Assembly (NCBI GenBank): GCA_003696505.1
Contig: RFHC01000063.1
Coordinates: forward strand, 1 to 47,417
Direction: 5' to 3'
Length of the DNA: 47,417 bases
From: Deltaproteobacteria bacterium
GTDB taxonomy: Bacteria > Desulfobacterota > Deferrimicrobia > J040
Below are positions 10,914-44,886 of this stretch, in pieces. Each line of letters starts with the position of its first letter. The stretch's first letter is position 1. Both the position numbers and the translations under genes were made by a program. Under the pieces are notes generated by a model. The model saw nothing but the letters and a program-made list of their open reading frames with translations, searched no databases and had not been told where the DNA came from.

Positions 10914-10930
10914 CTCCGTTCCTCCTTTTT

Positions 10931-12477: not shown

Positions 12478-12483
12478 CTCCTC

Positions 12484-13335: not shown

Positions 13336-13336
13336 G

Positions 13337-14554: not shown

Positions 14555-14566
14555 CTCATCCTCCCT

Positions 14567-16021: not shown

Positions 16022-16022
16022 T

Positions 16023-17003: not shown

Positions 17004-17004
17004 G

Positions 17005-17868
17005 TTACTCTCTCCTCCCGAATATCCCTTCCGGCCGGAGAAAGAGGACGGCAACGAAAAGAGCGAGGGCAAATATCCCCTGAAACATCGTGGAAGCAAA
17101 GACAACGATTATCGCTTCGCCCAGTCCAAGGATGATCCCTGCGAGGAGGAGTCCCGGGATCGACCCGAGTCCGGCAAGCACCGTGAGGATGAACGCGTTG
17201 ATGGTAACCGCTTCTCCCCCCACGGGATTGATGTGGGAGACGATTCCGAAGAGGGGACCGGCAAACCCGGCGAGAGCGCACCCGAGGACAAAGGCGAATC
17301 GGTCTATCCTCTCCACGTCAACCCCCACGAGAGCGGCGGCCTCCCTGTCCATGGAGGAGGCGCGGATCATCTTCCCCGTCTCCGTCCTTGCGAGGAAGAA
17401 CGTTAGCCCTCCGATAATCAGGAGGCTCACCAGGCCGGAAACGAGGTTCCCTCTGTTCACCTGAACGGGTCCGAGCCACACCCCCTCGGTCAACCAGGGG
17501 ATGTTGATGATGCGCTCGTCCGCGGTGAAGAGGAGGAGAAAGAGGTTCGTCAAGATAACCCCCACCCCGTAGGTGAGTATGAGGGTGTTCAACTCATCAT
17601 CCCGGATCCTCCGAACCACGAAGTAATAGAGGTATCCCACAATTCCGACGGAAAGTCCGGAAAAGAGGAGGGCCAGGGGGAGGGGAACCCCCATCCCCCG
17701 GATGGCGAAATATCCCACGTAAGCCCCCGCGAGGAGGAGCTCCCCGTGGGCAAGGTTGATGATTTTCAGAACACCGAAAACAAGACTCAACCCGACGGCA
17801 AAGAGAGCGTAGTTCGCTCCCATGAGGAGACCGGATGCGATGGAATTCGCAAGGAGAGAAAAACTCAT
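17005..17868 (-). CDS. Branched-chain amino acid-type ABC transporter permease (LivH-like)
   Basis: 287 aa and about 8 TM helices. The INLAHGELLLAGAY block is typical of LivH-type permeases. Confidence 0.9.
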   Translation of the reverse strand: MSFSLLANSIASGLLMGANYALFAVGLSLVFGVLKIINLAHGELLLAGAYVGYFAIRGMGVPLPLALLFSGLSVGIVGYLYYFVVRRIRDDELNTLILTYGVGVILTNLFLLLFTADERIINIPWLTEGVWLGPVQVNRGNLVSGLVSLLIIGGLTFFLARTETGKMIRASSMDREAAALVGVDVERIDRFAFVLGCALAGFAGPLFGIVSHINPVGGEAVTINAFILTVLAGLGSIPGLLLAGIILGLGEAIIVVFASTMFQGIFALALFVAVLFLRPEGIFGRRE

Positions 17869-17887
17869 CGTCTCCCCTCAACCCACC

Positions 17888-19069: not shown

Positions 19070-19088
19070 TTGCCCCCTCCTTTCTTTT

Positions 19089-19805
19089 TTAAAGTCCCAG
19101 ATAGGCCCTCCTCACTTTCTCGTTTTCCTCCGCCTCTTCAGGTGGGCCGGAAAAACGGATCTCTCCGTTCTCCAGGACCCACACATAGTCTGAAATCTCG
19201 ATTGCCTTCTTCGCGTTCTGCTCCACCAGGAGCACCGTCTTTCCCGCTTCCCTCATTCGTTCAATGACCCGGAAAACCTCCGCCACGACCATCGGAGCGA
19301 GCCCGAGGGAGGGCTCGTCGAGCAACACCATGTCCGGGTCACCCATAAGTGCCCTGCCAATTGCAACCATCTGCTGCTCTCCCCCGGAGAGGGTGCGGGC
19401 AGTCTTTCTCAGGAGACGCCTCAGGTGGGGAAAGATTTCCAGCACCTCTTCGAGCCTCTCCTCCAGAGAATCTCCCTCTCTCCGCAGGAGATACCCCATC
19501 TCCAGGTTCTCCCTGACGGTCATATCTCCCCAGAGCCTCCTTCCCTCAGGGACGAGGGCAATCCCTTTCCGGGCAATCTGGTGAGTTTTCAACCCTCTCA
19601 CGCTCTCTCCCCTGAAGGTGATCTCCCCCTCGATGGGGGGAAGAACTCCCATGACCGTCCTCATCAGAGTCGTTTTCCCCGACCCGTTCGACCCGAGAAC
19701 CACCGTTATCTTCCCCTCTTCCGCCGACAGCGATACGCCCCTGAGGACGACAACCTCGCCGTATCCTGCAACAACACCTGACAGGCTGAGGATGGCTTCC
19801 GGCAC
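19089..19805 (-). CDS. ABC transporter ATP-binding protein (LivF-like)
   Basis: 238 aa with Walker A GSNGSGKTT, signature LSGGEQQM and Walker B VLLDEPS. Confidence 0.9.
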   Translation of the reverse strand: MPEAILSLSGVVAGYGEVVVLRGVSLSAEEGKITVVLGSNGSGKTTLMRTVMGVLPPIEGEITFRGESVRGLKTHQIARKGIALVPEGRRLWGDMTVRENLEMGYLLRREGDSLEERLEEVLEIFPHLRRLLRKTARTLSGGEQQMVAIGRALMGDPDMVLLDEPSLGLAPMVVAEVFRVIERMREAGKTVLLVEQNAKKAIEISDYVWVLENGEIRFSGPPEEAEENEKVRRAYLGL

Positions 19806-19806
19806 G

Positions 19807-20514
19807 CTACACCCCGAGGTACGCTTCTATGACGCCCCTGTCCCTCGTCGCCTCATCCGGAGGACCCTCGAAAATCTTCTCCCCGAAATTGAGGACGATA
19901 ATTCTCTCGCAGAGGGCATGGATGACGTGCATGTTGTGCTCCACCACAACGATGGTGAGCTTCTCCTTATCCTTTACCCGTCTCACCGTCTCGAGCATCC
20001 CCTCCACCTCGCGGGGGAGGAGACCGGCCATTACCTCGTCCAGAAGGAGGAGCACCGGAGAAGTGGCGAGAGCCCGGGCAAATTCGAGTTTCTTCTTCTC
20101 CGGAAGGCTCAGATTCCGCGCGGGAACATCCGCTTTCTTACCCAGCCCGAAGAGGTCGAGTATCTCTTGAACCCTCCCCTCTCCTGCCCTCCGGGGTTCC
20201 CGCCCGAAGAGGCAACTCGCCCTGACGTTTTCCTCAACGGAAAGGTCCGCCAGCGGTCGAACCAGCTGAAAGGTCCGGGCGACGCCCAGTTTTACTATCC
20301 GGTTCGGGCGAAGGCCGTCAATCCTCCTCCCCCGGAAGACGACGCGCCCCTCATTCGGCCTGAGGAAACCCGTGATGATGTTGAAGAGAGTCGTCTTCCC
20401 CGCCCCGTTGGGACCGATGATCCCCACTATCTCCCCCTCTTTCACGGCGAAGGTAAGGTCGCGAAGGACGGTAAGCCCCCCAAAACTCTTCGTCACCCCC
20501 TCAACCTTCAGCAC
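19807..20514 (-). CDS. ABC transporter ATP-binding protein (LivG-like)
   Basis: 235 aa with Walker A GPNGAGKTT and Walker B LLLDEVMAG. The signature region is degenerate (LSLPEKKKLEFARAL). Confidence 0.9.
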   Translation of the reverse strand: MLKVEGVTKSFGGLTVLRDLTFAVKEGEIVGIIGPNGAGKTTLFNIITGFLRPNEGRVVFRGRRIDGLRPNRIVKLGVARTFQLVRPLADLSVEENVRASCLFGREPRRAGEGRVQEILDLFGLGKKADVPARNLSLPEKKKLEFARALATSPVLLLLDEVMAGLLPREVEGMLETVRRVKDKEKLTIVVVEHNMHVIHALCERIIVLNFGEKIFEGPPDEATRDRGVIEAYLGV

Positions 20515-21662
20515 TCTCCCCCCTTTTTCAGGCAGTGCCTGGCAATAATGAGCCTCTGAATTTCTGACGTCCCCTCGTAAATTCTCGTGAGGCGGAGGTC
20601 TCTGTAAAATCGCTCCACTGGAAGGTCCTTCATGTATCCCATCCCCCCATGGACCTGGAGCGCCCGGTCAGCTATCTCGCACGCCTTCTCTGTGGCGAAA
20701 AGTTTTGCCATCGCCACACGGTGAGGAATCTTCTTCCCCTCGTCCATTTCCGCAGCGGCGGAGTAAATCATATTTTCCATTGCGTATATCTCCACGGCGG
20801 AATCGGCGATCATCCACTGGATCGCCTGAAAGCTCCCGATGGGCTTCCCGAAGGCAACCCTCTGATTCGCGTGCTCCACCATCATTTCGAGGAGCTTCCT
20901 GGCTGCGCCGAGGGCGCTGGCGGCTATTATGAGACGACCCTTGTCGAGGACTTCCATGGCGAGGCGGAAGCCCTTCCCCTCTCCGCCCACGACGTTTCCG
21001 GCAGGGACGCGGCAGTCGTCAAAGAAAAGCTCGCAGGTGTGCGACCCGCGGAGCCCCATCTTTTTCTCCGGCGGACCTACAGTGAACCCTGGAGTTCCCC
21101 GCTCTACCAGGAACATGGTGAGTCCGTCGTGCTTTTTCTCCCTGTCTGTCACGGCAATGACAGAAAAGAGGGAGGCTACGTCGGCGTTCGTGATGAACTG
21201 CTTCGTCCCGTTGAGGACGTAATTATCCCCCGCTCTAACGGCACTTGTCTTGATTCCGGCCGCATCGGAGCCTGCGCCGGGCTCAGTGAGTGCGAAGGCA
21301 GTGATGTATTCCCCCGTCGCGATTTTCGGGAGATACTTCTCCTTCTGCTCCGGAGTCCCCGCCAGGACGAGTCCGGTAACTCCAATACCGTTGTTCGTGC
21401 TGATAATCGTCCGGAAACACGCGTTGGTTCTCCCCATCTCCTCCATAACGGCGCACTGCCCCGTTACGGAGAAACCGAAGCCTCCGTACTCCTCGGGGAC
21501 GCTCATCCCGAAAAGGCCGAGCTGCCGCATCTTCGAGATGATCTCCTCAGGAATTCTGTCTTCCTCTTCAACCTGTGCGGATATCGGTTCAAGTTCCGTC
21601 TTGACGAATTTCCTCACCGTCTGGATGAAAATCTCCTCCTCCCGTTTCAGGACAATCCTCAT
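20508..21662 (-). CDS. Acyl-CoA dehydrogenase (short/medium-chain type)
   Basis: 384 aa with FALTEPGAGSDAAG, the catalytic-base region IYEGTSEIQRLIIAR, and GGMGYMKDLPVERFYRD. Confidence 0.9.
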   Translation of the reverse strand: MRIVLKREEEIFIQTVRKFVKTELEPISAQVEEEDRIPEEIISKMRQLGLFGMSVPEEYGGFGFSVTGQCAVMEEMGRTNACFRTIISTNNGIGVTGLVLAGTPEQKEKYLPKIATGEYITAFALTEPGAGSDAAGIKTSAVRAGDNYVLNGTKQFITNADVASLFSVIAVTDREKKHDGLTMFLVERGTPGFTVGPPEKKMGLRGSHTCELFFDDCRVPAGNVVGGEGKGFRLAMEVLDKGRLIIAASALGAARKLLEMMVEHANQRVAFGKPIGSFQAIQWMIADSAVEIYAMENMIYSAAAEMDEGKKIPHRVAMAKLFATEKACEIADRALQVHGGMGYMKDLPVERFYRDLRLTRIYEGTSEIQRLIIARHCLKKGGEC

Positions 21663-21925: not shown

Positions 21926-21946
21926 GGGGGAGGAATTTCCTCCCCC
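21926..21946 (-). terminator. Hairpin terminator after the cytochrome operon
   Basis: GGGGGAGGA-att-TCCTCCCCC forms a perfect 9-bp GC-rich stem. It starts 5 nt after the TAA at 21952..21954. On the minus strand a pyrimidine/T-rich stretch (TTCTCCTTTCC) follows. Confidence 0.5.
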
Positions 21947-21951
21947 GAATT

Positions 21952-23412
21952 TTACTTCTTCGCCAGAACCTTCTCGAAGAGTTTAATCGCCTCCTGCGCG
22001 TCCTCCTTGACCTTATCAAGGACGGCCTCGGCGTATTCCACGTTGTGGAATCCGTTGCCCAGTTTCACGAATCGGTAGTTGTAACGGGCCCTGTTGAGCT
22101 TTATCATCGCCCGTCGGAAATCGTCGTTCCTCGTCCTGACGGAGCGGGCGAGCTCCTCCGCGCGCTCGAGAATGGGGGCTGTCGCCTCGAGAGCTTCCTC
22201 AACCGTGCTCTTCCACTCGTCAAGAACTCCCTCATAGTCCTCGCCGTGGCATCCGATGCAGGCGGCCTCGGAGGCCTTGTAGGTCTGGCCGGTGAATTCC
22301 GCCTCGCCGGCCCCTACCTCCGGGACCTTGTGACAGCCGATGCAGTCAACCTGGGCGAGGAACATGACAGATGGCATCCTTTCAACGCCCTTTGCTCCCG
22401 TCCCGGCGTACATCTCTTTTGTAGCGTTGTGCTTGTTCTCGTGGCAGATGGAGCAGTCGTACTGGAGGGGTTCAACAGCCGTCCTCACCTTATGCTTGAT
22501 TTCGAAGTGACAGTGTGTGCAGTCCACCTTGTGTTCCGTCACGTGCATTCTGTGGATGAAGACCGTGTCCTCATACCTGGAGAGTCGTTTCTCGTCGTTG
22601 TGACACTGGAAACAGCGGTCCTTGGGAGCATCTCCCGTCCCCTGGATGGCGTCGAGGTGGCAATTCTGACAGTCCACTTTCCTCTCGCCGACGAAGTCCT
22701 GGTGATTGAAGGTGACTCCCTCAAACTCGATATCCTGCTTCGGGGCAGTGTGACAGGATGGACAACCTCCGATGGGCTCTTCCTGCCGCCCCTTGACCAT
22801 CCCCTTGAAGTGACAGAGGAAGCAGGTGTTCTCCGTCACCTCCATGTGATTTCCCACGACGATCTGGCTGTGACACGACGTGCACCTGAGCTTCTTTCCC
22901 CTTCTCTCCTGGGTCAGATGGGGTTTGTGGTCGAACTTGATCCCTCTCTTGAAGATGACCTGCCCCTCCAGGAGGCGCTTCTCGTGGCATCCCTTCCTGA
23001 GACAGGAATCGTCGCTAATCTCTGCGTAGGGCTTCGAGCTGTAGGTTCGCGTCACGTACTTCACCACCTGGGAAACAGCCTGGAACTTGAGCCAGAGCTT
23101 TTCCCTCAACTCCGGAGGGTAGTGGCAGTCCACGCAGGGAACGTGGTTGTGGCTCGAGGTTTTCCACGCCTCGTAGTAAGGCTTCATTATGTGACAGGAA
23201 CTGCAGAAGTAGGGACTGGTGGAGAACTCGAACATACCGATGGAAAAGATGAGAAAGAGGACCCCCAGGAACCCGAGAAACTTGAAGAATCTCGGGCGGA
23301 TGTGTAGCTTGTCCTCTTTCCCCTCGGGGATGTGCATCCCCAGGGTCTCGAGGACCCGGTGTTTCTTCCTGCCCCCTTCATTCCCCTTTTTGTCTCCACT
23401 GCCTGTAACCAT
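21952..23412 (-). CDS. NapC/NirT-like membrane-anchored multiheme cytochrome c (11 CxxCH plus 1 CX4CH)
   Basis: 486 aa. After one TM helix (FLGFLGVLFLIFSIGMF) comes FCSSCHIMKPYYEAWKTSSHNHVPCVDCH, the classic NapC/NirT opening. The remaining motifs are CTSCH, CFLCH, CPSCH, CQNCH, CFQCH, CTHCH, CSICH, CIGCH and CIGCH, plus CLRKGCH. The RBS is GAAGGAAGG. Confidence 0.85.
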   Translation of the reverse strand: MVTGSGDKKGNEGGRKKHRVLETLGMHIPEGKEDKLHIRPRFFKFLGFLGVLFLIFSIGMFEFSTSPYFCSSCHIMKPYYEAWKTSSHNHVPCVDCHYPPELREKLWLKFQAVSQVVKYVTRTYSSKPYAEISDDSCLRKGCHEKRLLEGQVIFKRGIKFDHKPHLTQERRGKKLRCTSCHSQIVVGNHMEVTENTCFLCHFKGMVKGRQEEPIGGCPSCHTAPKQDIEFEGVTFNHQDFVGERKVDCQNCHLDAIQGTGDAPKDRCFQCHNDEKRLSRYEDTVFIHRMHVTEHKVDCTHCHFEIKHKVRTAVEPLQYDCSICHENKHNATKEMYAGTGAKGVERMPSVMFLAQVDCIGCHKVPEVGAGEAEFTGQTYKASEAACIGCHGEDYEGVLDEWKSTVEEALEATAPILERAEELARSVRTRNDDFRRAMIKLNRARYNYRFVKLGNGFHNVEYAEAVLDKVKEDAQEAIKLFEKVLAKK

Positions 23413-23436
23413 GGCTGCACCTTCCTTCTGTGTGGT

Positions 23437-24738
23437 TTACTCCTCCCGGTCCCCTTCTTCCCGGCGCACCTGGAAGAGTTTCGCCACGAAGAGGAGACCG
23501 AGGATGAGGAAGAGTCCGGACCCGGCGAGGGCCACCCGCACCCTCAGCCTGTCCTGGGCACGCATCTTCTCCACTTCCTCTTCAGCGATACGTATCTGGT
23601 CATCGGCGTCGATGAGGTTTCGCCGAAGAATCCCGGGATTGAGAGCGTGGGTTTTGGGCCTCATCTGGACGAACTGAGCAGACAATTCCGTGACAGCGCT
23701 TTCAAGCCTGTCGATGAACTTCCCCGTTTTTTTCGCTTCTTCGAGGACGCCTGTCAGCTCCTCGAGCTTTTCCTGAACGAAGAGAATTTTCTCCTTTAAC
23801 TCCTGTCCCACCTTATACGCCTCTTCGGACTCGTCGTGGCAGTAACCGCAGTGTCCTTCTTCGCTCCCGTCAAACATGGCCGGCGTGGGAAGGTCGTTTT
23901 TGTGATTTCCATGGCAGTCGACGCAGCGCGGCTCACCCGTTTCCTTAACGGCCTCGCCGTGAGGGCCCATCCTGAAATACTCGTAAATGTTGGAGTGACA
24001 GTTACCGCACACGTTCGGCACCTCCTCAACGCCGGGAGGCCGGGCACCGTGGATTCCGTGACAGGTAGCGCAGTTCGGAACGAGGAGAGGGTTTTTCCCC
24101 TCAACTTCCCCGTACAGGATTTTCCCGTGGTACCCCTTGCGGTAGAGGTCGTACTGGTTTGCCGGGATACCGTACTTCGACATCAGTTCTTCGTTGGCGT
24201 GGCACTTCGCGCAGGTTTCCGGCACGTTCGTGTGAAATACAGATGAGAGAGGGTCGCTCTTTTTCCTGATTTCGTGGGTCCCGTGACAGCTCACGCAGGT
24301 GGCGACGTTCGGGTCTCCCTGAGCGAGGAGAATTCCGTGCTGGCTCGTCTTGTACTCCTCCCACTGGTCCGTCCGGAGGTTATACTGCTTCATCATCTTC
24401 ACATCGGAATGGCACGAACCGCAGAGTTCCGGTATCTCAAAGGGTGTTGGCACTCCCCGGAAGTTGTACTTCTCGCTCATCGAATCTTCCGAGGTGATGT
24501 ATGGATTTCCCCCGTGGCAGACGTCGCAGGTAATACCCACTTTCCGGTGAATGCTCTTCTCCCATCCATCTGCGGAGACTTTCATCCTCCCGCCCAGCTG
24601 GTAATGGCAGTTGTAACAACTGTTGTCCGTCTCTACCTTTCCGTGGGCAATTCCCCCGGTAAAAATCACACCGCACATCAGGAGGATGACGCAGAGGACG
24701 ACGGCGGCAACATTTCGCTTTGACCGGTTCTCCCTCAT
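23437..24738 (-). CDS. Nonaheme c-type cytochrome with N-terminal signal/anchor and C-terminal TM helix
   Basis: The start is set to the ATG at 24738 (MRENRSKRN), which forms an ATGA overlap with the upstream stop. The nine CxxCH motifs are CYNCH, CDVCH, CGSCH, CVSCH, CAKCH, CATCH, CGNCH, CVDCH and CGYCH. It shows the repeated pattern CxxCHGxHxI...DPLSSV...TCxKCH. The C-terminal helix is VALAGSGLFLILGLLFVAKLF. Confidence 0.85.
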   Translation of the reverse strand: MRENRSKRNVAAVVLCVILLMCGVIFTGGIAHGKVETDNSCYNCHYQLGGRMKVSADGWEKSIHRKVGITCDVCHGGNPYITSEDSMSEKYNFRGVPTPFEIPELCGSCHSDVKMMKQYNLRTDQWEEYKTSQHGILLAQGDPNVATCVSCHGTHEIRKKSDPLSSVFHTNVPETCAKCHANEELMSKYGIPANQYDLYRKGYHGKILYGEVEGKNPLLVPNCATCHGIHGARPPGVEEVPNVCGNCHSNIYEYFRMGPHGEAVKETGEPRCVDCHGNHKNDLPTPAMFDGSEEGHCGYCHDESEEAYKVGQELKEKILFVQEKLEELTGVLEEAKKTGKFIDRLESAVTELSAQFVQMRPKTHALNPGILRRNLIDADDQIRIAEEEVEKMRAQDRLRVRVALAGSGLFLILGLLFVAKLFQVRREEGDREE

Positions 24739-25172
24739 CACGAGAAATACCCCCAGGCCGTGAAGATGATGTAGAGTATGGCGAGCGTTATCCCGATTCT
24801 CAGGGCGTACGGCCTCTCTGAGGGACGAACGGACGGATTTCTGTCTATGAAAGGAAGGAAGAAGAGGAGGAGGCCGATTACTCCCTGGGCGAGAATGCCT
24901 ATGATTTTCGGCGCCCACATTCCGATGAACTGGAGCTTATCAGCGGCCTTCAAAAACTGGTACGCCGCCAGGAAGTACCACTCGGGTTTGATGTGTTCCG
25001 GCGTGACGTAAGGGTCTGCTTTTGGAAGGTAGGGAGGAGGGAAAAAGGCCGCAAGGGAAACGAGTAGCGCCATGAGGATGCAGATGAGAACGAGTTGCTT
25101 CAATATGTGGTTCGGATAAAAGGGCTCAGACCCGTATTTCCAGGTTTTTTCCTTTTCCACGGTTCCCTCCAT
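24738..25172 (-). CDS. Cytochrome b C-terminal domain protein (b6f subunit IV-like)
   Basis: It has the PEHIKPEWYFLAAYQFLK block and three TM helices. I chose the ATG at 25172, 7 nt after the cytochrome b6-like stop. The track ORF begins at a TTG at 25202 instead, so the start is uncertain. Confidence 0.8.
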   Translation of the reverse strand: MEGTVEKEKTWKYGSEPFYPNHILKQLVLICILMALLVSLAAFFPPPYLPKADPYVTPEHIKPEWYFLAAYQFLKAADKLQFIGMWAPKIIGILAQGVIGLLLFFLPFIDRNPSVRPSERPYALRIGITLAILYIIFTAWGYFS

Positions 25173-25179
25173 GAGTCTC

Positions 25180-25953
25180 TCAAAGCGGGTCGGCAATGCC
25201 AAGCCGACGAATCATTAGGAAGTGAACGGTCAGAAAAAGCATCGTTATCCCGGGAAGGATGACGACGTGCATCGCGAAGAACCTCGTGAGCGCGAGCTGT
25301 CCCACATCGTGTCCCCCCCGGATGAGGTATTTCAGCGTTTCCCCCACAAGGGGGATGGCTGACACTCCCTCCGTCCCCACCGTCGTCGCCCAGTAAGAGA
25401 GCTGATTCCAGGGGAGGAGGTACCCGGAAAAGCCGAAACCGAGGGTGAGTGCGAGGAGAACCACTCCCGAAACCCAGGTAAGCTCCCTCGGTGGCTTATA
25501 AGCGCCCGTGAGGAACACGCGGAGCATGTGGAGGAAGACCATCACGATGAGGAGGCTCGCCCCCCACGCGTGCATTCCCCGAATGAGCCATCCGAAAGGG
25601 ACCTGTCCTGTTATCTCCATCACAGACTGATACGCCTCTGAGACCGTGGGCCGGTAGTAAAAAAGGAGGAGCACTCCCGTGAGAATCTGAACGAGGATGA
25701 GAACGAAGGACATTCCGCCGAGGCACGCGAGCAGGTTCGTCTCCAGTTTCGTCCGGTAGTGAGGCGCCGGTTTTTTCAACTGCTGGGCCAGTGCCTCGTC
25801 GAAGTCGAGCCTGTCGTCCAGGGCCCCGTAGAGGAACCCGATGAGGGACATGAGGTTGAGGATGTCTATGTATGCCCGCTTTTTCGTCTCTTCCAGGTCG
25901 GTCTGAGGTTGCCTCTCCGTATCGTTTTTCTGACTCCCTGTCATTCCCCTCAT
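25180..25953 (-). CDS. Cytochrome b N-terminal domain protein (cytochrome b6-like)
   Basis: 257 aa with HAWGASLLIVMVFLHMLRVFLTGAYKPPRELTWVSGV and RFFAMHVVILP blocks carrying the heme-ligating His residues. Its start overlaps the Rieske stop by 4 nt. Confidence 0.85.
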   Translation of the reverse strand: MRGMTGSQKNDTERQPQTDLEETKKRAYIDILNLMSLIGFLYGALDDRLDFDEALAQQLKKPAPHYRTKLETNLLACLGGMSFVLILVQILTGVLLLFYYRPTVSEAYQSVMEITGQVPFGWLIRGMHAWGASLLIVMVFLHMLRVFLTGAYKPPRELTWVSGVVLLALTLGFGFSGYLLPWNQLSYWATTVGTEGVSAIPLVGETLKYLIRGGHDVGQLALTRFFAMHVVILPGITMLFLTVHFLMIRRLGIADPL

Positions 25954-26378
25954 CCTCCAACGACGATTTTGTCACCGGCCACTCTCGCGTCGTACACCCT
26001 CAGCGGAGAGGGGGGAGGGCCTGCAAGGACGGAACCGTTCAGGTCGAATTTCCCTCCGTGGCAGGGGCAGGAGATGAACCCCTCCTTTTTATACATGACG
26101 ATGCACCCCAGGTGGGTGCAGACGGCGGAAAGCGCGTAGACCCTATCGCCCGTCCTGACCACGATAACCTTGTCCCCCCGGAAGGGATACACCTTGTACC
26201 CGTTAAGGGGGACCTCTTCCAGCGGAACGGACAACGCCTCTCCCGACGTGCGGGCCCCGCTCCTCGGCCAGAGAAATGAGATAACCGGGTAGAGGACAGA
26301 GAGCCCGATCACTCCGCCGACGAGAGCGATGAGTCCGTTGAGGAACTTTCTCCGGGTCGTCTTCCCTTCCTCCGCCAT
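25950..26378 (-). CDS. Rieske [2Fe-2S] protein with twin-arginine signal
   Basis: 142 aa. It has a TRRKFLNGL Tat motif followed by a TM helix. The cluster boxes are CTHLGC and CPCHGG. Confidence 0.9.
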   Translation of the reverse strand: MAEEGKTTRRKFLNGLIALVGGVIGLSVLYPVISFLWPRSGARTSGEALSVPLEEVPLNGYKVYPFRGDKVIVVRTGDRVYALSAVCTHLGCIVMYKKEGFISCPCHGGKFDLNGSVLAGPPPSPLRVYDARVAGDKIVVGG

Positions 26379-26385
26379 GAGAGCA

Positions 26386-26766
26386 TCACTCCTCTTCGAT
26401 GAATTCCTCGTATTCCTCTTCGGTCATCAACTCTTCCAGCTCGTCGGGGTCGGAAATTTCGATTTCGACGAGCCAACCCTTCCCGAAGGGATCAGTGTTT
26501 ATCAGGGAAGGGTCGTCGATGACGTTTTCGTTCACATTGATGATGGTCCCGGATATGGGAGAGATGAGCTCCGCCACGGCCTTCTGCGACTCTATCTCTC
26601 CGAAGCTGTCTCCGGCGTCGACGTAGGTGTCCGCGTCCGTCAGGTTCACCTCGTCAATCTGCCCCAGTTGCTCCTGCGCGAAATCCGTTATTCCCAGGCG
26701 GGCCACATCTCCGTCGACGAGAACCCACACGTGGTCCTCTGAAAATCTCAGTCTCTCTTCGCCCAT
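26386..26766 (-). CDS. gcvH: Glycine cleavage system H-type lipoyl carrier protein
   Basis: 126 aa with the HVWV..DGDVARLGITDFAQEQLG opening, the lipoyl-lysine block GEIESQKAVAELISPISG, and an acidic C-terminus. Confidence 0.85.
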   Translation of the reverse strand: MGEERLRFSEDHVWVLVDGDVARLGITDFAQEQLGQIDEVNLTDADTYVDAGDSFGEIESQKAVAELISPISGTIINVNENVIDDPSLINTDPFGKGWLVEIEISDPDELEELMTEEEYEEFIEEE

Positions 26767-26798
26767 GAGCCGACTCCGTTGGGAAATGTTCGTTTATT

Positions 26799-26826
26799 TT
26801 TATATTAGGGGCACGGAGGGTGTCAA
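26799..26826 (-). promoter_or_regulatory. Near-consensus sigma-70 promoter for the gcvH-Rieske-cytochrome operon
   Basis: The minus strand reads TTGACA (26826..26821), a 16-nt spacer, then TATAAA (26804..26799). It lies about 33 nt upstream of the gcvH ATG. Confidence 0.55.
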
Positions 26827-26878: not shown

Positions 26879-27280
26879 TCACGAATTCCGGGAGAGACAG
26901 CTGGCACAGGTTCCGTAAAAGACGACCTGGAAAGATGCGACCTTACCCACGCCTTTTAAAACCGTCTCGTCGATGAAATCCCCGCTCCTTACTCCATGGA
27001 CGTCGATGATGGAGTCGCAGGTTGTGCAGTGAAAGTGTCCGTGGGGACTCACTTCGGCATCATATCGGGCGCTCGGGCTGAATTCGCTTTTGATTTCGAT
27101 TATTTTCCCCTGGTCCTTCAGGATTTTCAGGTTCCTGTAGACCGTTCCCAGGGATAGATTGGGAATGATTTTCCTGGCCTCCTGGTAAATCCACTCGGCG
27201 TCGGGGTGGCTGTGGGTGTTTTTCAGGACGCTGAGGACGACGTTCCTCTGCCTCGTATTTCTCCTCTTGACCTCCTTCAT
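26879..27280 (-). CDS. Fur family metalloregulator (Fur/PerR/Zur, subtype not resolved)
   Basis: 133 aa with NTRQRNVVLSVL...HPDAEWIY...LSLGTVYRNLKIL winged helix, an HGHFHCTTC box and a C-terminal CASC box. Confidence 0.85.
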   Translation of the reverse strand: MKEVKRRNTRQRNVVLSVLKNTHSHPDAEWIYQEARKIIPNLSLGTVYRNLKILKDQGKIIEIKSEFSPSARYDAEVSPHGHFHCTTCDSIIDVHGVRSGDFIDETVLKGVGKVASFQVVFYGTCASCLSRNS

Positions 27281-38594: not shown

Positions 38595-39668
38595 ATGAAG
38601 TGGAGAGTTGCTGCCCTCTTCCCTCTCATTCTCATTCTCTTCCTTCCCCTCGCCCCGAAAACATCTCAAGGAGAGTGGGTCGGACAGTCCCGCTGCCTCG
38701 TCTGCCACGGGAAGAGGGAGTACCGTTTTTACAAAAAAGGAGGATACGCGAAGAACCTCTACGTCTCACTCGAAGAACTCAGAGCATCCGTCCACAAAGA
38801 GAAGTTTTGCTCCGACTGCCACACCGACGTGGTGGAACTCCCCCACAGGGGAACGCCTTCCCGCGTCTCCTGTACCACCTGTCACTACAAGGGGAACCCT
38901 GAAGGAGCGCCCCAGCTGGATGCATATCTGGAGTACGAAAGGAGCATTCACGGGCTCGAAGCGAAAGAGGGGAATCCGGATGCTCCCCTCTGCCAGGACT
39001 GCCACGGGTCCCACAACGTCCGTCCCCCCGAAGACCCCCTCTCGACGGTGAACAAAAGGAACGTCGCGCGCACCTGCGGGAAGTGCCACATCGACATCTA
39101 CGCCGAGTTCAGGACGAGCATCCACGGCGTTGCCGTCGCACGGGGGGTGGAGGACGCTCCTTCCTGCCCCGACTGCCACGGCGAACACAACATCCTCGAG
39201 CCGACGAATCCGGAGTCTACGGTCTACCCCTCCCACGTGCCGACGCAGTGCTCGAAGTGCCACGCCCGGGAGGCGATTCGGGAAAAGTACGGGATCAAAG
39301 CGGAGCCCGTCAAGACGTACAGGGAGAGTTTCCACGGAGTGGCCATAGAATTCGGCGCGAGGACCGTGGCAAACTGCGCCTCCTGCCACGGGACACACGA
39401 CATTCGCCCGCCTGAAGACCCCCTCTCTTCCGTCAATCCTGAGAACATCCCGAAAACCTGCGGGAAGTGCCACCCCGGCGCGACGCCGAAATTCGCGGAG
39501 GGGAAGATTCACATAGACCCGACGAAGAAAGAGGCAGGCGCCGTCTACTACGTGGCCTCCTTCTTCAAATACCTCACCATCACGACGATGCTCGGGCTTA
39601 TCTGCCACATCCTCCTCGACCTGTACGGGAGGGTCAGGAGGATGAGGAGAAAGGAGAGAATGAGATGA
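38595..39668 (+). CDS. Nonaheme c-type cytochrome with signal peptide and C-terminal TM helix
   Basis: The start is at the ATG at 38595 ([17 protein letters not shown]) after GGAGAAAGGGGG. The nine CxxCH motifs are CLVCH, CSDCH, CTTCH, CQDCH, CGKCH, CPDCH, CSKCH, CASCH and CGKCH. It shows the repeated pattern CxxCHGxHxI.PPEDPLS.VN..N...TCGKCH. The C-terminal helix is [24 protein letters not shown]. Confidence 0.85.
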
Positions 39669-40585
39669 GCTCCAGAGAGAAAGAACTGATCGACCTCCTC
39701 GTGAAAGAAGCGGAAGACGAATTCCTCAGGACGGCTGGAGACCTCCCCCCCGAAGAACTGGAGAGAATCCGGCAGAAGGTGCGGGAGAGAGCGCGGGCAG
39801 AGGCGGAGAGAGAGGTGAGGAGACTCCTCCGGAAGAGGGAGGAAGAGGAGAAGAGGGAAAGAGAAAGAGTGGAGGAGGAAGAGGAGTACTTCATCCGTTT
39901 CAACCGGAACTTCCGGTTCCAGCACATGGTCCTCTTCACATCCGTCATCATCCTCATCATCACGGGACTCCCCCTGAAGTTCCCCGACTTCGCCCTCTCC
40001 CGCTGGCTCATGAGCCTGTGGGGAGGAGTCAAGTACAGCACCGTCATTCACCGGATTGGCGCAACGATGCTCATCTACTTCATGGTCCACCACCTCCTCT
40101 ACACGCTCCTGAGCAGGGACGGGAGGAGAGACTTCATCATGCTCATCCCCACACCCAAAGACTTCCGCGATTTTTTCCAGAACATCCGCTACTTCGTCGG
40201 GAAGACGGAGGACCCGCCGAAGTTTGACCGCTTCTCTTACATCGAGAAGTTCGACTACTGGGCCGTCTACTGGGGATGCGTCATCATGATCGGGTCGGGC
40301 CTCATCCTCTGGTTCGAGGAAACGGCCATGAAGTTCCTCCCCAAGTTCTGGGTCGACATGGCCCACGAGGCCCACTCGGACGAGGCCCTCCTGGCAACCC
40401 TTGCCATCGTCATCTGGCACTTCTACAACGTCCACTTCAACCCCGACAGGTTCCCGGGGACACTTTTGTGGTGGCACGGAAAGATCTCGAAAGAGGAGAT
40501 GCTCAAGGAGCACCCGCTGGAGTACGAGCGCATCATGGCTGAAAGGGCCCGCCGAAAAGAGGCGGGAGAGGAGGGGAGACAATGA
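39665..40585 (+). CDS. FdnI/HydC-type diheme cytochrome b (4 TM) with a charged N-terminal extension
   Basis: The start ATG at 39665 overlaps the upstream stop (ATGA). Four predicted helices carry His residues ([54 protein letters not shown]), as in Ni/Fe-hydrogenase and formate dehydrogenase b-type subunits. The first 75 aa or so are Glu/Arg/Lys-rich. Confidence 0.8.
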
Positions 40586-42564
40586 GGGAGATGATATCCG
40601 ATTTCTTCCGCTTCCTCGGGGAATACCGGCGGCCCATCCTGAAAATCGTGATTTTCCTCCTCATCCTCTTCGTCGCATACAACGGTGTCTTCTTTATCTC
40701 CCTGAACCACCCGAAATCGTGCACCGTCTGCCACTACATGGACCCTTACTACGAGCAGTGGAAGAGTTCCTCACACAACGGGGTGAAGTGCCTCAAGTGC
40801 CACACCTTCAAGCCTCTCTTTATCACGGTGACGACGGTCAAGTACCTGACGGGGACTTACAACCCCAGACCTCACGCCGTCGTGAAAGACGATTCGTGCC
40901 TCTCGAAGGGATGCCACTCCCTCCGTCTGGAGAAACCTGAAGTCCCCTTCGCAGAGGAGGTGGTCTTCGACCACAAGGAACACATGGAAAAACTCAAGCG
41001 GGGGGAGAAACTCACCTGCACCTCCTGCCACTACCAGGTTGTCCAGGGGGAGCACATGACCGTGGACTCCCGTGTCTGCTTTCTCTGCCACTTCAAGGGA
41101 ACGGGCCCGGGACAGGCCGTGGGGGGATGCACTTCCTGTCACAGAAACCCGGGAGAGGTGGAAACGCACGTGGGCTTCCGATTCAATCACGCCCCTTACC
41201 TGAAGAGAGGGCTCGAGTGCCACAACTGCCACCTCCGGGTTGCCGAAGGAACGGGAAAAGTTGAGAAGGACCGTTGCTATTCCTGCCACGTGGAGAGGAA
41301 GAGGGAGAAACTCGACCGCATCTCGCTCCACAAAATCCACGTCACCGGCCAGCACCTTCCCTGCCTCTCCTGCCACGAGGAGATACGCCACGAAATCGTC
41401 GAAATGGCGAAGATGTTCGGAGGGAACTGCACGTCCTGCCACGGGTCTCTCCACGAGGAAAAGGAGGAAATCTATATGGGGACAGGTGCCCGGGGAATTC
41501 CCCCATCCCCTTCCCTCATGTTCGTCGCCCAGGTCGCCTGTGACGGCTGTCACAAAGGTGCTGTCCGGGGAGAAACGAAGGGGGAAAGGCAGATTTCCGC
41601 TCTCAGGCAGACCTGCGTGGAGTGCCACTCCACGGAGTACGGAAAGATGCTGAACACGTGGATGACATGGGGGGAGAGAATTATCAAAGAAACGAAGAAG
41701 GTGAGAGCCAGAGGGCGGGTCCTCCTCGCGAAGGCGAAGGAGAAGGGAATAAAGGACGCTGTCTCCCTGCTGGAGGACATATCCGCCAACGCAGAGCTCC
41801 TGGAAAGGGGAGTCCCTGCCCACAACATCACCTTCGCCTGGGAGATAGCCAGGACTGCCTACACTCAGTACAGCATCGCCGCAGGTTATCTGGGGGAGAA
41901 GCCTCTCCCCCTCCCCGACTTCCTCTCCTCTCCCGAGAAGACCTGCATCTCCCTCTGCCACGGCGACCTGGGAATACCCGGAGATGTGGAAGTTGAATCC
42001 CTCGGGACGGCATTTCCCCACTCCACCCACCGGGAAGACCTGGGCCTTCCCTGCACCCGGTGCCATACGCCGGAAAAACACCGGGTCGAGAAGTTCCGAC
42101 CCGGGGAATGCACAGGCTGCCACCACGGCGGGGAAGCAGAGCTCGAGTGCGCCACCTGCCACGTGAAGACATCGGCCCTTTACGCGGGGAAGAGCGATGG
42201 AAACCTCCCCCCGTCGGAGATGTTCGAGGCGGAAGTCAACTGCACGGACTGTCACGGAGAGGGAAGCCACATCTCCGCCGACACGCGAAAAATAAGAGAA
42301 AGGTGCATCGAATGTCACGACGAATCCTACGGGGAAACTCTGGAGGAATGGCTTGACGCATCCGCAGAGGTGAGAAAGCGCGGGGAAAAACTCCTGGAGG
42401 AACTCCTCCTCGTCACGGAAAAGAGGGAAAACCCCGACGAGAAGGCTCTGCTGGAAGAAACGAGAAAACTCGTTTCCTCCATACTCGCTGCCAATCCGGT
42501 CCACAATCTGGATGGGGCGGAGAAAGCCCTCGCAGAGGGCGAGAAAGCGCTGAGGAAGGAATAG
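40582..42564 (+). CDS. NapC/NirT-like membrane-anchored multiheme cytochrome c (16 CxxCH plus CX4CH and CX3CH)
   Basis: 660 aa, with an ATGA overlap to the cytochrome b gene. After the TM helix ([21 protein letters not shown]) comes [29 protein letters not shown]. It is colinear with the 21952..23412 protein over about 440 aa, and a 5-heme C-terminal extension follows. Confidence 0.85.
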
Positions 42565-44875: not shown

Positions 44876-44886
44876 GATTCCCCCCC

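What the first reader, a model, noticed from the sequence alone, without database searches (positions are those of the whole stretch)
21952..26826. gcvH, Rieske, split cytochrome b, nonaheme and undecaheme genes form one operon: a bc-type complex wired to at least 20 c-type hemes
Six co-directional genes are packed together.
- gcvH stop to Rieske start: 7-nt gap.
- Rieske to b6-like: 4-nt overlap.
- b6-like to subunit IV-like: 7-nt gap.
- Subunit IV-like to 9-heme: ATGA overlap at 24738.
- 9-heme to 11-heme: 24-nt gap.

The block is bounded by a TTGACA-N16-TATAAA promoter (26799..26826) and a GC hairpin (21926..21946).

No cytochrome f or c1 is present. In its place are a 9-heme protein anchored at both ends and an 11-heme NapC/NirT-type protein. 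NapC/NirT proteins are themselves quinol dehydrogenases, so one operon carries two putative quinone-reactive modules.

Rieske/cytochrome b loci with multiheme partners are known from anammox planctomycetes and metal reducers. I do not recognise this exact gene set, and no terminal reductase or outer-membrane conduit lies nearby.
Basis: partly seen in the sequence, partly recalled or inferred. Interest (0 to 1): 0.8.

Follow-up and report, generated by a model that had tools for sequence, protein, structure and literature searches.

The report
Rieske/cytochrome b operon with 21-heme partners
This is a real, tightly packed operon for a b6f-like quinol-oxidising membrane complex whose usual single-heme cytochrome is replaced by a 9-heme and a 12-heme protein; the same module is common in uncultured bacteria but has never been named or studied.

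Summary
Six minus-strand genes (26766 to 21952) encode GcvH, a Tat-signal Rieske protein, a split cytochrome b (b6-like plus subunit IV-like), a 9-heme and an "11-heme" cytochrome c. The gaps and overlaps are as reported, apart from one junction.

Refinements:
- Cytochrome b carries the CxGG cysteine that binds heme cn in b6f.
- The Rieske protein has the CPCHGG box, which I read as the low-potential type.
- The 9-heme protein has a signal peptide and one C-terminal helix, the topology of cytochrome c1/f.
- The 11-heme protein has an invariant extra CX4CH, so 12 sites. It combines an NrfH-like module (invariant CXXCHXM) with an OcwA/NrfA-like module.

Context: in 75 of the 80 best genome loci the 9-heme gene follows cytochrome b directly. 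This is the conserved c subunit of a widespread, unnamed Rieske/cytochrome b class. The 12-heme gene follows it in several lineages. gcvH sits upstream only in Deferrimicrobia-like genomes.

The complex is not Geobacter Cbc6/ExtP; curated cut-offs are missed.

The most likely function is menaquinol:multiheme-cytochrome electron transfer. Direction, acceptor and the role of gcvH are inferred or unknown. I rate it a new variant of a known kind, of moderate interest.

The parts
26799..26826 (-). Candidate sigma-70-type promoter, TTGACA-N16-TATAAA. The second hexamer ends 32 nt upstream of the gcvH ATG.
   Evidence: Read from the sequence. Not listed by the consensus scan, because the second hexamer lacks the final T. 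No transcript data.
26386..26766 (-). gcvH: glycine-cleavage H / lipoyl-carrier protein, 126 aa, with the lipoyl-lysine context ESQK (K62).
   Evidence: Pfam GCV_H 4.5e-41. TIGR00527 126.2 bits (cut-off 115.85) and NF002270 149.3 bits (cut-off 117). K62 position. Directly upstream of Rieske in 14 Deferrimicrobia-like loci only.
25950..26378 (-). Rieske [2Fe-2S] subunit, 142 aa. It has a Tat motif (T-RRKFL), one TM helix (residues 15-33), and the boxes CTHLGC (87-92) and CPCHGG (104-109).
   Evidence: Pfam Rieske 4.4e-14 and a TM_PetC hit. Best NCBIfam hits are bc1/b6f iron-sulfur subunits, all below cut-off. Motifs.
25180..25953 (-). Cytochrome b6-like four-helix cytochrome b, 257 aa. Heme ligands His128/142 and His229/244. 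CLGG at residue 77, the position where heme cn/ci is attached in b6f.
   Evidence: Pfam Cytochrome_B 1.3e-57. Closest solved proteins are cyanobacterial b6 (2zt9, 8e-64), against 1e-36 or weaker for mitochondrial-type bc1 cytochrome b. NCBIfam: b6 263.9 bits (cut-off 325), ExtP 255.8 bits (cut-off 290). A C[LF]GG motif is present in all 38 short (split-type, under 320 aa) cytochrome b ORFs in which the regex matched. The ATG at 25944 (M4) has better RBS spacing and is an alternative start.
24738..25172 (-). Subunit IV-like C-terminal part of cytochrome b, 144 aa, three TM helices, Qo motif PEWY at residue 63.
   Evidence: Pfam Cytochrom_B_C 4e-17. TIGR01156 41.6 bits (cut-off 127); ExtQ model 14.5 bits (cut-off 150). 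TM helices.
23437..24738 (-). c9: nonaheme cytochrome c, 433 aa. It has an N-terminal signal-like helix (10-28), nine CXXCH, a helical stalk and one C-terminal TM helix (400-418). It is the proposed stand-in for cytochrome c1/f.
   Evidence: Nine CXXCH, all invariant, plus 8 invariant non-motif His and 2 invariant Met. TM scan. AF2 pLDDT 89.1. Foldseek best hits are HAO/HOX with TM about 0.40, then NrfA and OcwA. In 75 of 80 genome loci it lies directly downstream of cytochrome b.
21952..23412 (-). c11: membrane-anchored multiheme cytochrome, 486 aa, with 11 CXXCH plus an invariant CX4CH (137-143), so 12 sites. It has a 44-aa cytoplasmic N-terminus and a TM helix (45-63). An NrfH-like module with CSSCHIM (70-76) follows, then an OcwA/NrfA-like C-terminal module and a three-helix bundle.
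   Evidence: Pfam Cytochrom_NNT 3.7e-12. NrfH model 62.8 bits (cut-off 134.2). Invariant columns. PDB profile hits: OcwA 6i5b 6.6e-22 (residues 251-477) and NrfH 2j7a 5.2e-12. 6I5B is OcwA. The AF2 model is poor overall (pLDDT 61.8), with a confident C-terminal helix bundle and a moderately confident TM helix.
21926..21946 (-). Intrinsic-terminator-like GC hairpin with a T-rich tail, 5 nt after the c11 stop codon.
   Evidence: Terminator scan: 9 pairs, 7 G-C, loop of 3, tail TTCTCCTTTC.
26879..27280 (-). Fur/PerR-family regulator gene directly upstream on the same strand. It is a possible regulator of the operon.
   Evidence: Pfam FUR 2.8e-21. Best NCBIfam hit is PerR, 108.9 bits (cut-off 200). 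The same neighbour is present in L001, L002 and L009. Regulation was not tested.
38595..42564 (+). A second, paralogous cytochrome cluster. It holds a 9-heme c9 paralogue (38595-39668) and a b561-type cytochrome b (about 39665-40585). The third gene is a 16xCXXCH c11 paralogue (40582-42564) that also carries CXXCHXM and CX4CH.
   Evidence: Heme counts. Pfam Ni_hydr_CYTB and cytochrome families. phmmer against window proteins: 126 bits to c9 and 315 bits to c11. In L014, L016, L018, L021, L023 and L026 the homologous cluster lies immediately after c11, convergent. The start codons are my choice within longer ORFs.

Best explanation
The block is an operon for a membrane-bound, b6f-like Rieske/cytochrome b quinol oxidoreductase. 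The mono-heme cytochrome f/c1 is replaced by two membrane-anchored multiheme cytochromes.

**Proposed mechanism**
1. Menaquinol is oxidised at a Qo site. The site is formed by the four-helix cytochrome b, the PEWY-bearing subunit IV and the Tat-exported Rieske protein.
2. One electron goes through the [2Fe-2S] cluster into the nine-heme protein c9. This protein sits on a single C-terminal helix, as c1 and f do.
3. The electron then passes to the 12-heme protein c11 and on to periplasmic or extracellular acceptors.
4. The second electron crosses the membrane through hemes bL and bH, and probably a covalently bound heme cn, to a Qi site. This is a Q-cycle and would conserve energy.

**Shown:** the domain identities, the catalytic motifs, the topology predictions, and the conserved gene order Rieske, cytochrome b, c9 (c11).

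**Inferred:** co-transcription, physical assembly of c9 and c11 with the core, menaquinol as substrate, Q-cycling, outward electron flow and the final acceptor.

gcvH is co-located in one lineage only. I treat it as a co-transcribed neighbour, not a subunit.
For: - **Packing.** Gene packing, promoter-like site and terminator hairpin.
- **Core identity.** Pfam gives Rieske, Cytochrome_B and Cytochrom_B_C. Cytochrome b is closest to solved b6 (8e-64).
- **Catalytic motifs.** Four heme-ligand His at b6 spacing, CLGG at the heme-cn position, PEWY, CTHLGC/CPCHGG, and the Tat motif RRKFL.
- **Literature on CxGG.** The CxGG motif correlates with heme cn, and with short (split) cytochrome b, in the diverse 'subfamily G' (PMC5600118). 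The same correlation appears in my loci.
- **c9 as the c subunit.** It always has nine hemes. It lies directly after cytochrome b in 75 of 80 loci and after Rieske plus cytochrome b in 71 of 80, across many phyla. It has a single C-terminal TM helix.
- **c11 association.** It follows c9 in Deferrimicrobia-like, Nitrospinota, Thermodesulfobacteriota and other loci, and is in the same cluster in Schekmanbacteria.
- **Electron-transfer role.** Eight invariant His plus two invariant Met serve nine hemes in c9. There is no CXXCK.
- **Associated cytochromes.** Multiheme and b561 clusters lie next to the operon in sister genomes and 11.7 kb away in this window. This fits delivery of electrons into a periplasmic heme network.
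Against: - There are no transcript, protein or activity data. The organism is uncultured, and every related locus is a metagenome-assembled genome.
- Bis-His multiheme cytochromes usually have potentials well below a Rieske cluster (my knowledge). Rieske-to-c9 transfer could therefore be uphill unless the His/Met hemes provide a high-potential entry point. This was not testable here.
- c11 carries the NrfH heme-1 signature and could oxidise quinol on its own, so it need not be downstream of c9.
- One relative (L088) has cytochrome b, c9 and c11 without an adjacent Rieske gene.
- No experimental evidence of Q-cycling exists for this part of the cytochrome b tree (PMC5600118).
- No terminal reductase is encoded in the operon.
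Confidence: 0.62

Rival explanations
1. Two parallel quinol entries ('two gears'). c11 is an autonomous NrfH-type, non-electrogenic menaquinol dehydrogenase. The Rieske/cytochrome b/c9 unit is a separate, energy-conserving quinol oxidase. Both feed the same periplasmic heme network, and which one runs depends on acceptor potential. This would resemble the ImcH/CbcL/CbcBA branching of Geobacter.
For: - c11 keeps the NrfH-specific CXXCHXM heme-1 motif. Its four-heme N-terminal module includes the CX4CH site. These features are invariant in 26 homologs.
- The profile hit to NrfH 2j7a is 5.2e-12. The invariant K109 of c11 lines up with a Lys in the NrfH stretch LPFKAIA.
- c11 paralogues occur with b561-type cytochromes and without any Rieske protein (L005, and the window's second cluster).
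- Potential-dependent branching is documented in Geobacter (PMC13591261).
Against: - The NrfH equivalog cut-off is missed (62.8 against 134.2 bits).
- The quinol-site residues beyond the motif could not be checked.
- The tight c9-c11 adjacency in many loci fits a single wire equally well.
- There are no functional data.
Confidence: 0.2
2. Inward or reverse operation. The 21-heme chain collects electrons from extracellular or periplasmic donors, such as Fe(II), reduced humics or a syntrophic partner. It passes them to the quinone pool through a Rieske/cytochrome b complex working in reverse, or to the Qi side.
For: - The low potentials expected for bis-His multihemes make heme-to-Rieske transfer downhill (my knowledge).
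- No terminal reductase is encoded nearby.
Against: - Neighbouring genes are for beta-oxidation and branched-chain amino-acid uptake. That suggests a heterotroph needing an electron sink.
- Relatives in the same phylum were predicted to be Fe(III) reducers (PMC9386147).
- Nothing in the sequence sets the direction.
Confidence: 0.12
3. The multiheme proteins are catalytic reductases, not wires. In this reading c9 (HAO-like fold) and/or c11 (OcwA/NrfA-like C-terminal module) reduce a soluble N- or S-oxyanion, and the Rieske/cytochrome b core is their dedicated quinol dehydrogenase.
For: - Foldseek's best matches for c9 are hydroxylamine oxidoreductases (6t5e and 4n4m, TM about 0.40, prob 1.0), then NrfA.
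- Residues 251-477 of c11 are homologous to OcwA (6.6e-22) and weakly to NrfA.
- From my memory of the OcwA study, that protein also reduces nitrite and hydroxylamine.
- In Schekmanbacteria the cluster is followed by a molybdopterin oxidoreductase.
Against: - There is no CXXCK motif.
- c9 has ten invariant candidate distal ligands for nine hemes, so no obviously open heme.
- TM scores of about 0.4 show only shared heme-packing architecture.
- The family associates mostly with other multiheme cytochromes, not with known catalytic partners.
Confidence: 0.06

Closest known systems
Cytochrome b6f / Firmicute-type b6c complexes (PetBDC; QcrABC)
   Same: - Split cytochrome b: a four-helix b6 plus a three-helix subunit IV.
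- CxGG cysteine at the heme cn/ci position.
- PEWY Qo motif.
- Membrane-anchored Rieske protein with CxHxGC...CxCH.
- The closest solved sequences are cyanobacterial b6.
   Different: - No cytochrome f, and no mono- or di-heme c.
- A 9-heme and a 12-heme protein are present in its place.
- All NCBIfam b6f models are missed at their cut-offs (b6 263.9/325, subunit IV 41.6/127, PetC 73.5/250).
- The Rieske box is CPCHGG, which I read as the low-potential (menaquinol) type.
Geobacter Cbc6 / CbcMNOPQR = ExtMNOPQS (GSU2935-2930)
   Same: - A Rieske protein (14 kDa) and a short cytochrome b, plus a small membrane subunit, are encoded with two large multiheme cytochromes (12 and 10 hemes).
- It is proposed to be a quinol:cytochrome c oxidoreductase, and its role is still unknown (PMC2825233, PMC5877670, PMC13591261).
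- The window's cytochrome b scores 255.8 bits on the ExtP model.
   Different: - The ExtP cut-off (290) and the ExtQ cut-off (150; observed 14.5) are missed.
- Gene order differs: in Geobacter the multihemes come first.
- There is no ExtS, and no porin, rhodanese or selenoprotein genes.
- One MAG locus (L041) carries both a c9-type set and a separate set whose cytochrome b scores 288.4 on ExtP. The two are therefore paralogous systems.
- Homology of c9/c11 to ExtN/ExtM could not be tested.
Anammox Rieske/cytochrome b complexes with multiheme and HAO-like subunits (Kuenenia R/b-2, R/b-3)
   Same: - Short cytochrome b with CxGG, in the taxonomically diverse 'subfamily G' (PMC5600118).
- Multiheme proteins take the place of c1/f.
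- From my own knowledge, an HAO-like octaheme protein is encoded in those clusters. The c9 model resembles HAO.
   Different: - There is no NAD(P)-binding or FeS oxidoreductase subunit in this operon.
- c9 has nine hemes and a C-terminal anchor.
- The window's cytochrome b was not placed on a tree here.
NrfH (NapC/NirT family) menaquinol dehydrogenase
   Same: c11 residues 47-184 have an N-terminal TM helix, the CXXCHXM heme-1 motif and four heme sites. NrfH model 62.8 bits; 2j7a 5.2e-12.
   Different: - It is fused to eight further hemes and a helical bundle.
- The third heme site is CX4CH.
- There is no NrfA partner.
- The score is below the equivalog cut-off (134.2).
OcwA (Thermincola potens nonaheme cell-surface terminal reductase, PDB 6I5B)
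   Same: c11 residues 251-477 align to OcwA residues 267-501. The aligned stretch includes four heme motifs and the C-terminal helices ending in the G-x-HN motif (E 6.6e-22).
   Different: OcwA is a soluble, surface-exposed protein of a Gram-positive bacterium with no NrfH module. c11 is anchored in the inner membrane and encoded with a Rieske/cytochrome b core.

Membership tests
Rieske/cytochrome b (bc) complex superfamily | Rieske protein with the cluster boxes CxHxGC and CxCH (including the disulfide cysteines) and a membrane anchor or Tat signal | tested here: met
   CTHLGC 87-92, CPCH 104-107, RRKFL at residue 9, TM helix 15-33. Pfam Rieske 52.6 bits (cut-off 20.3).
Rieske/cytochrome b (bc) complex superfamily | Cytochrome b with two His pairs on helices B and D, and a PxW[YF] Qo motif | tested here: met
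   His128/142 and His229/244; PEWY at subunit IV residue 63. Pfam Cytochrome_B 195 bits and Cytochrom_B_C 62.8 bits, both above the gathering cut-off.
Rieske/cytochrome b (bc) complex superfamily | Quinol:cytochrome c activity with a Q-cycle | not testable with these tools
   Needs biochemistry. The literature reports no experimental Q-cycle evidence for non-classical subfamilies (PMC5600118).
Cytochrome b6f sensu stricto | Split b6 plus subunit IV, with the CxGG cysteine for heme cn | tested here: met
   Separate genes with a 7-nt gap; CLGG at residue 77.
Cytochrome b6f sensu stricto | Cytochrome f (PetA) as the c-type subunit, and curated b6 / subunit IV / PetC model cut-offs | tested here: not met
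   There is no cytochrome f or c1 gene. NCBIfam scores against cut-offs: 263.9/325, 41.6/127.05, 73.5/250.
Geobacter Cbc6 / ExtMNOPQS | Cytochrome b and membrane subunit reach the ExtP and ExtQ equivalog cut-offs | tested here: not met
   ExtP 255.8 bits against 290; ExtQ 14.5 bits against 150. In L041 a second, ExtP-like cytochrome b (288.4 bits) coexists with the c9-type set.
Geobacter Cbc6 / ExtMNOPQS | Multiheme subunits orthologous to ExtM (12 hemes) and ExtN (10 hemes) | not tested
No Ext model matched c9 or c11 at E up to 10. I do not know whether such models exist in the library.
NapC/NirT/NrfH quinol dehydrogenases (for c11) | N-terminal TM helix followed by a tetraheme module; for NrfH, heme 1 in CXXCHXM | tested here: met
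   TM helix 45-63; CSSCHIM 70-76; sites at 93, 137 (CX4CH) and 177, all invariant. Pfam Cytochrom_NNT 46.8 bits (cut-off 24.1).
NapC/NirT/NrfH quinol dehydrogenases (for c11) | Curated equivalog score (NrfH, NapC or TorC), and quinol dehydrogenase activity | tested here: not met
   NrfH 62.8/134.2, NapC/NirT 16/310.6, TorC 28.7/478.2. Activity is not testable here.
Glycine cleavage system H protein (for gcvH) | GcvH equivalog score and a lipoyl-lysine | tested here: met
   TIGR00527 126.2/115.85; NF002270 149.3/117. K62 lies in ESQK.
Glycine cleavage system H protein (for gcvH) | Works with GcvT, GcvP and Lpd in glycine cleavage | tested here: inconclusive
   No gcvT or gcvP was found among the window ORFs I scanned, but not every ORF was scanned and the genome is not available. 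In GWC2_65_14 relatives the gene follows metH and MTHFR genes.
HAO / octaheme cytochrome family (for c9) | Eight-heme core with a five-coordinate catalytic heme | tested here: not met
   Only a partial fold match (TM about 0.40). Nine hemes with ten invariant His/Met distal candidates. Sequence hits to PDB octahemes are 1e-3 or weaker.
Alternative complex III | ActB (CISM FeS/Mo-like) and ActC/F (NrfD-like) subunits | tested here: not met
   No such domains appear in the six genes.

The most novel reading that the evidence does not exclude
The operon encodes a 'two-gear' respiratory module. An energy-conserving Q-cycle unit (Rieske/b6/IV/c9) and a non-electrogenic NrfH-type quinol dehydrogenase (the N-terminal module of c11) share one 21-heme periplasmic wire.

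A cytoplasmic lipoyl protein of the GcvH fold acts as a redox sensor or regulator of this machinery. It may act through the conserved cytoplasmic N-terminus of c11.

Three observations are the leads:
- The conserved gcvH-Rieske linkage in Deferrimicrobia-like genomes.
- A receiver-GcvH fusion next to a histidine kinase, beside the same cluster in another lineage (L088).
- Receiver-c11 fusions in Schekmanbacteria.
Probability: 0.08. Interest if true: 0.8.

Novelty: new variant of a known kind. Interest (0 to 1): 0.5.

Why it matters
Rieske/cytochrome b complexes are the central energy-conserving step of most respiratory and photosynthetic chains. Outside the classic bc1, b6f and bcc enzymes, their partners and even their ability to run a Q-cycle are unknown.

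This locus, and the hundreds of related loci found here, define a coherent and widespread class. In it a nine-heme, C-terminally anchored cytochrome takes the place of c1/f. In several lineages a 12-heme NrfH/OcwA-like protein is added.

If the class links the menaquinol pool to long heme wires with energy conservation, the predicted ATP yield of metal reduction or extracellular electron exchange would change. That would apply to abundant uncultured sediment and groundwater bacteria (Deferrimicrobiota, Nitrospinota, Acidobacteriota, Zixibacteria and others). It would also give a clear target for structural work on how a Rieske cluster hands electrons to a multiheme chain.

Tried and rejected
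- **Exact-match look-up of c11** found no contig, so the source organism could not be identified directly. c9 has one identical database protein, on a 3.2-kb Logan contig.
- **AlphaFold2 of c11** with 26 sequences gave a poor model (pLDDT 61.8). I did not use it for fold search and relied on profile-to-PDB hits.
- **Membership in Geobacter Cbc6/Ext** was considered because cytochrome b hits the ExtP model. I rejected it on the curated cut-offs and on the coexistence of both types in L041.
- **Looking for cultured carriers.** I spent the third protein search on an Ignavibacteria c9 homolog. Only generic names and MAGs came back.
- **Literature searches** for a nine-heme partner of a Rieske protein, and for GcvH together with Rieske, found nothing relevant. 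The Deferrimicrobium genome paper does not mention this operon.
- **Alternative complex III and canonical NrfHA** were considered and rejected for lack of their defining subunits.
- **The roughly 700-aa protein (k5)** upstream of Rieske in Acidobacteriota looked like an outer-membrane barrel, but it has no Pfam match. I make no claim about it.

Full report
**1. The observation**

ORF listing and direct reading of the junctions confirm six co-directional minus-strand genes:
- gcvH, 26386-26766
- a Rieske gene, 25950-26378
- a b6-like cytochrome b, 25180-25953
- a subunit IV-like gene, 24738-25172
- a 433-aa protein with nine CXXCH, 23437-24738
- a 486-aa protein with eleven CXXCH, 21952-23412

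The subunit IV/9-heme junction reads GTGATGA. That is a 1-nt overlap for the ATG start, the start of an identical database protein (P0121). It is a 4-nt overlap for a GTG start.

TTGACA-N16-TATAAA lies at 26826-26799. The tool's promoter scan does not list it because it demands a T at the last position of the second hexamer. The same scan finds the GC hairpin at 21946-21926 with a T-rich tail.

**2. What the genes are**

*Domain hits.*
- Pfam gives GCV_H, Rieske (with a weak PetC anchor hit), Cytochrome_B, Cytochrom_B_C and multiheme families. For the last gene it gives the NapC/NirT N-terminal region.
- GcvH passes the NCBIfam equivalog cut-off.
- The Rieske, b6 and subunit IV proteins hit bc1/b6f models best, but all fall below cut-off.

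*The core proteins.*
- Among solved structures, cytochrome b is far closer to cyanobacterial b6 (8e-64) than to mitochondrial-type bc1 cytochrome b (1e-36 or weaker).
- Cytochrome b has the four heme-ligand histidines at b6 spacing (128/142, 229/244). It has CLGG at residue 77, the CxGG motif that marks covalent heme cn in b6f-type enzymes (PMC5600118).
- Subunit IV has PEWY.
- The Rieske protein has a Tat motif (RRKFL), one TM helix, CTHLGC and CPCHGG.
- By textbook knowledge, Gly in place of Ser after CPCH goes with low-potential, menaquinol-type Rieske proteins. That is my inference, not a test.

*The 9-heme protein (c9).*
- It has a signal-peptide-like N-terminus ending in AHG and a single C-terminal TM helix at 400-418.
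- Its AlphaFold2 model is confident (pLDDT 89.1). It shows a heme domain on a long helical stalk that runs into the TM helix.
- This is the topology of cytochromes c1 and f, so 'anchored at both ends' is probably wrong.
- All nine CXXCH are invariant in 26 homologs, as are eight other His and two Met. That is enough to six-coordinate every heme.
- Foldseek's best matches are hydroxylamine oxidoreductases, NrfA and OcwA, at TM about 0.4. This shows shared heme-packing architecture only.

*The '11-heme' protein (c11).*
- It has an invariant twelfth site, CLRKGCH (CX4CH) at 137-143. It also has an invariant CSSCHIM at 70-76, the CXXCHXM signature of NrfH heme 1.
- Residues 47-184 match NrfH (2j7a, 5.2e-12). 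Residues 251-477 match OcwA, the nonaheme terminal reductase of Thermincola potens (6i5b, 6.6e-22), and match NrfA weakly.
- c11 is therefore an NrfH-like module fused to an OcwA/NrfA-like module, with a TM helix at 45-63 and a conserved 44-aa cytoplasmic N-terminus.
- Its AF2 model was too poor to use.
- The operon thus specifies 21 CXnCH heme sites, plus probably heme cn and two b hemes.

**3. Context from other genomes**

*Conserved gene order.* The same six-gene order occurs in three sources:
- a JGI metagenome contig (c11 90% identical);
- GCA_964429585.1;
- 'Deltaproteobacteria bacterium GWC2_65_14'.

In the last of these the genes upstream of gcvH are metH, rubredoxin and MTHFR, not Fur.

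*Genome scan.* A profile scan of 185,579 species genomes found at least 577 stretches that encode c9 relatives. The 80 best are all MAGs. I classified their ORFs with phmmer against the window proteins:
- c9, always with nine hemes, lies directly after cytochrome b in 75 of 80 loci. It lies after Rieske plus cytochrome b in 71 of 80. Three of the other five (L012, L017, L028) are cut off by contig ends.
- Lineages with split cytochrome b include Deferrimicrobia, Nitrospinota, Nitrospirae, Thermodesulfobacteriota, Abyssubacteria and Poribacteria. They keep the C[LF]GG motif.
- Lineages with a fused cytochrome b of about 355 aa include Acidobacteriota, Zixibacteria, Aminicenantes, Ignavibacteria and Armatimonadota. 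They lack the motif.
- This is the correlation described for cytochrome b 'subfamily G' (PMC5600118).

*Family size.* In a library of 1.84 billion representatives, c9 has 504 relatives at E ≤ 1e-30 and 1803 at E ≤ 1e-10. Source names are generic, such as 'cytochrome c3 family protein'.

*c11 and gcvH.*
- c11 follows c9 in the Deferrimicrobia-like loci. It also does so in Nitrospinota (L029), Thermodesulfobacteriota (L011) and others.
- c11 is in the same cluster in Schekmanbacteria (L087) and in a closed 3.4-Mb genome (L088).
- gcvH precedes Rieske only in Deferrimicrobia-like loci, 14 in all.

*Second cluster.*
- This window holds a paralogous set at 38.6-42.6 kb on the plus strand.
- The set is a 9-heme c9 paralogue, a b561-type cytochrome b and a 16xCXXCH c11 paralogue with the same CXXCHXM and CX4CH motifs.
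- In six sister loci this cluster lies immediately after c11, convergent. The statement that no partner cytochromes lie nearby therefore needs a caveat.

*Rest of the window.* It encodes beta-oxidation enzymes, a branched-chain amino-acid ABC transporter, MutS2, ribonucleotide reductase and similar genes.

**4. How it most likely works**

See the best explanation. The parts list and motifs are shown. The assignment of c9 as the electron acceptor of the Rieske protein rests on its c1/f-like topology and its near-universal position after cytochrome b. Everything about direction, acceptor, Q-cycling and the role of c11 is inference.

- One real difficulty is thermodynamic. Bis-His multihemes are usually far more negative than a Rieske cluster. 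The two invariant Met in c9 may provide a higher-potential entry heme, but this is untested.
- Because c11 keeps the NrfH quinol-site signature, a 'two parallel quinol entries' model is a serious rival.
- Reverse (inward) electron flow and a catalytic role for the HAO/OcwA-like modules are less likely. Neither is excluded.

**5. Comparison with known systems**

- **Geobacter Cbc6.** The closest named system is Geobacter Cbc6/CbcMNOPQR, also called ExtMNOPQS. It has a Rieske protein, a short cytochrome b, a small membrane protein and 12- and 10-heme cytochromes. Its role was still unknown in a 2026 review. The window's proteins miss the ExtP and ExtQ cut-offs. A Thermodesulfobacteriota MAG carries both a c9-type set and a separate ExtP-like set at 288.4 bits. 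I treat the two as paralogous systems.
- **Others in the same broad kind.** Anammox Rieske/cytochrome b complexes with multiheme or HAO-like subunits belong here. So does the general proposal that multiheme cytochromes were early Rieske acceptors (Dibrova 2013, as cited in PMC5317091).
- **Literature.** I found no paper describing the nine-heme subunit, the NrfH-OcwA fusion, or the gcvH linkage.

**6. Verdict**

The finding is real and well described. It is a lineage-typical example of a widespread but unnamed and uncharacterised class of Rieske/cytochrome b complexes.

It is a new variant of a known kind, not a new kind. It is not rare in public data. Its interest lies in the clear c1/f replacement by a nonaheme protein, the conserved NrfH-type second quinone module, and the unexplained association with a GcvH-fold protein.

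Noticed in passing
L088:9324-10184 (minus strand); closed genome CP070770.1: A 286-aa protein fuses a response-regulator receiver domain to a GcvH-like domain (33% identical to the window's GcvH, E 3e-17). A HAMP/HisKA histidine kinase gene comes next. The pair lies convergent to a cytochrome b / c9 / c11 cluster. This is a second, independent link between a GcvH-fold protein and this cytochrome cluster.
   Followed up: partly
L087:8001-9815; also P0061 and P0110: Schekmanbacteria c11 homologs carry an N-terminal cytoplasmic receiver (Response_reg) domain fused to the TM-anchored multiheme protein. In L087 a molybdopterin oxidoreductase with 4Fe-4S, membrane and NapC-like genes follows the Rieske/b/IV/c9 genes.
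   Followed up: no
window 38595-42564 (+): A second cytochrome cluster holds a 9-heme c9 paralogue, a b561-type (Ni_hydr_CYTB) cytochrome b and a 16xCXXCH c11 paralogue with CXXCHXM and CX4CH. It resembles 'cluster 1' described for a Deferrimicrobium MAG (PMC9386147) and the Methylomirabilota locus L005.
   Followed up: partly
window 42848-44890 (-): A 680-aa ORF has a signal-like N-terminus, is rich in Ser, Gly, Asp and Thr, and has no heme motifs and no Pfam match. It is convergent to the 16-heme gene. Function unknown.
   Followed up: no
L046, L059, L071 and other Acidobacteriota loci, directly upstream of Rieske: A roughly 330-aa decaheme cytochrome (cluster k3) and a roughly 700-aa protein with no Pfam match (cluster k5, in 11 loci) sit directly upstream of the Rieske / fused cytochrome b / c9 genes. 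The pair might be a porin-cytochrome pair, but the barrel nature of k5 was not tested.
   Followed up: partly
L041:1185-1913 and L040:929-1639: The same Thermodesulfobacteriota contigs carry a second Rieske/cytochrome b set whose cytochrome b scores 288.4 bits on the ExtP model (cut-off 290). It is flanked by 5-heme and 8-10-heme cytochromes. ExtP-like and c9-type complexes therefore coexist.
   Followed up: partly
Subunit IV genes of close relatives (L007, L008, L010, L014, L018, L019, L021, L022, L025): The Qo motif varies among near relatives. It is PEWY in the window and in L001/L002, and PDWY, PVWY, PVWF or PDWF elsewhere. In six other relatives the regex found no motif. This may reflect tuning of the quinol site.
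   Followed up: no
window 26799-26815 (-): An AT-rich stretch, CTAATATAAAAATAAAC, overlaps the second promoter hexamer in a genome of about 58% G+C. It lies just downstream of a Fur/PerR-family gene (26879-27280) that is conserved at this position in L001, L002 and L009. It could be an operator; this was not tested.
   Followed up: no
window 9744-21662 (-): Downstream of the operon lies a long minus-strand run of genes. It holds two acyl-CoA dehydrogenases, an enoyl-CoA hydratase, two 3-hydroxyacyl-CoA dehydrogenases, a thiolase, a sigma-54 activator and a LivFGHMK-type ABC transporter. This suggests fatty-acid or branched-chain amino-acid catabolism that would supply reducing equivalents.
   Followed up: no
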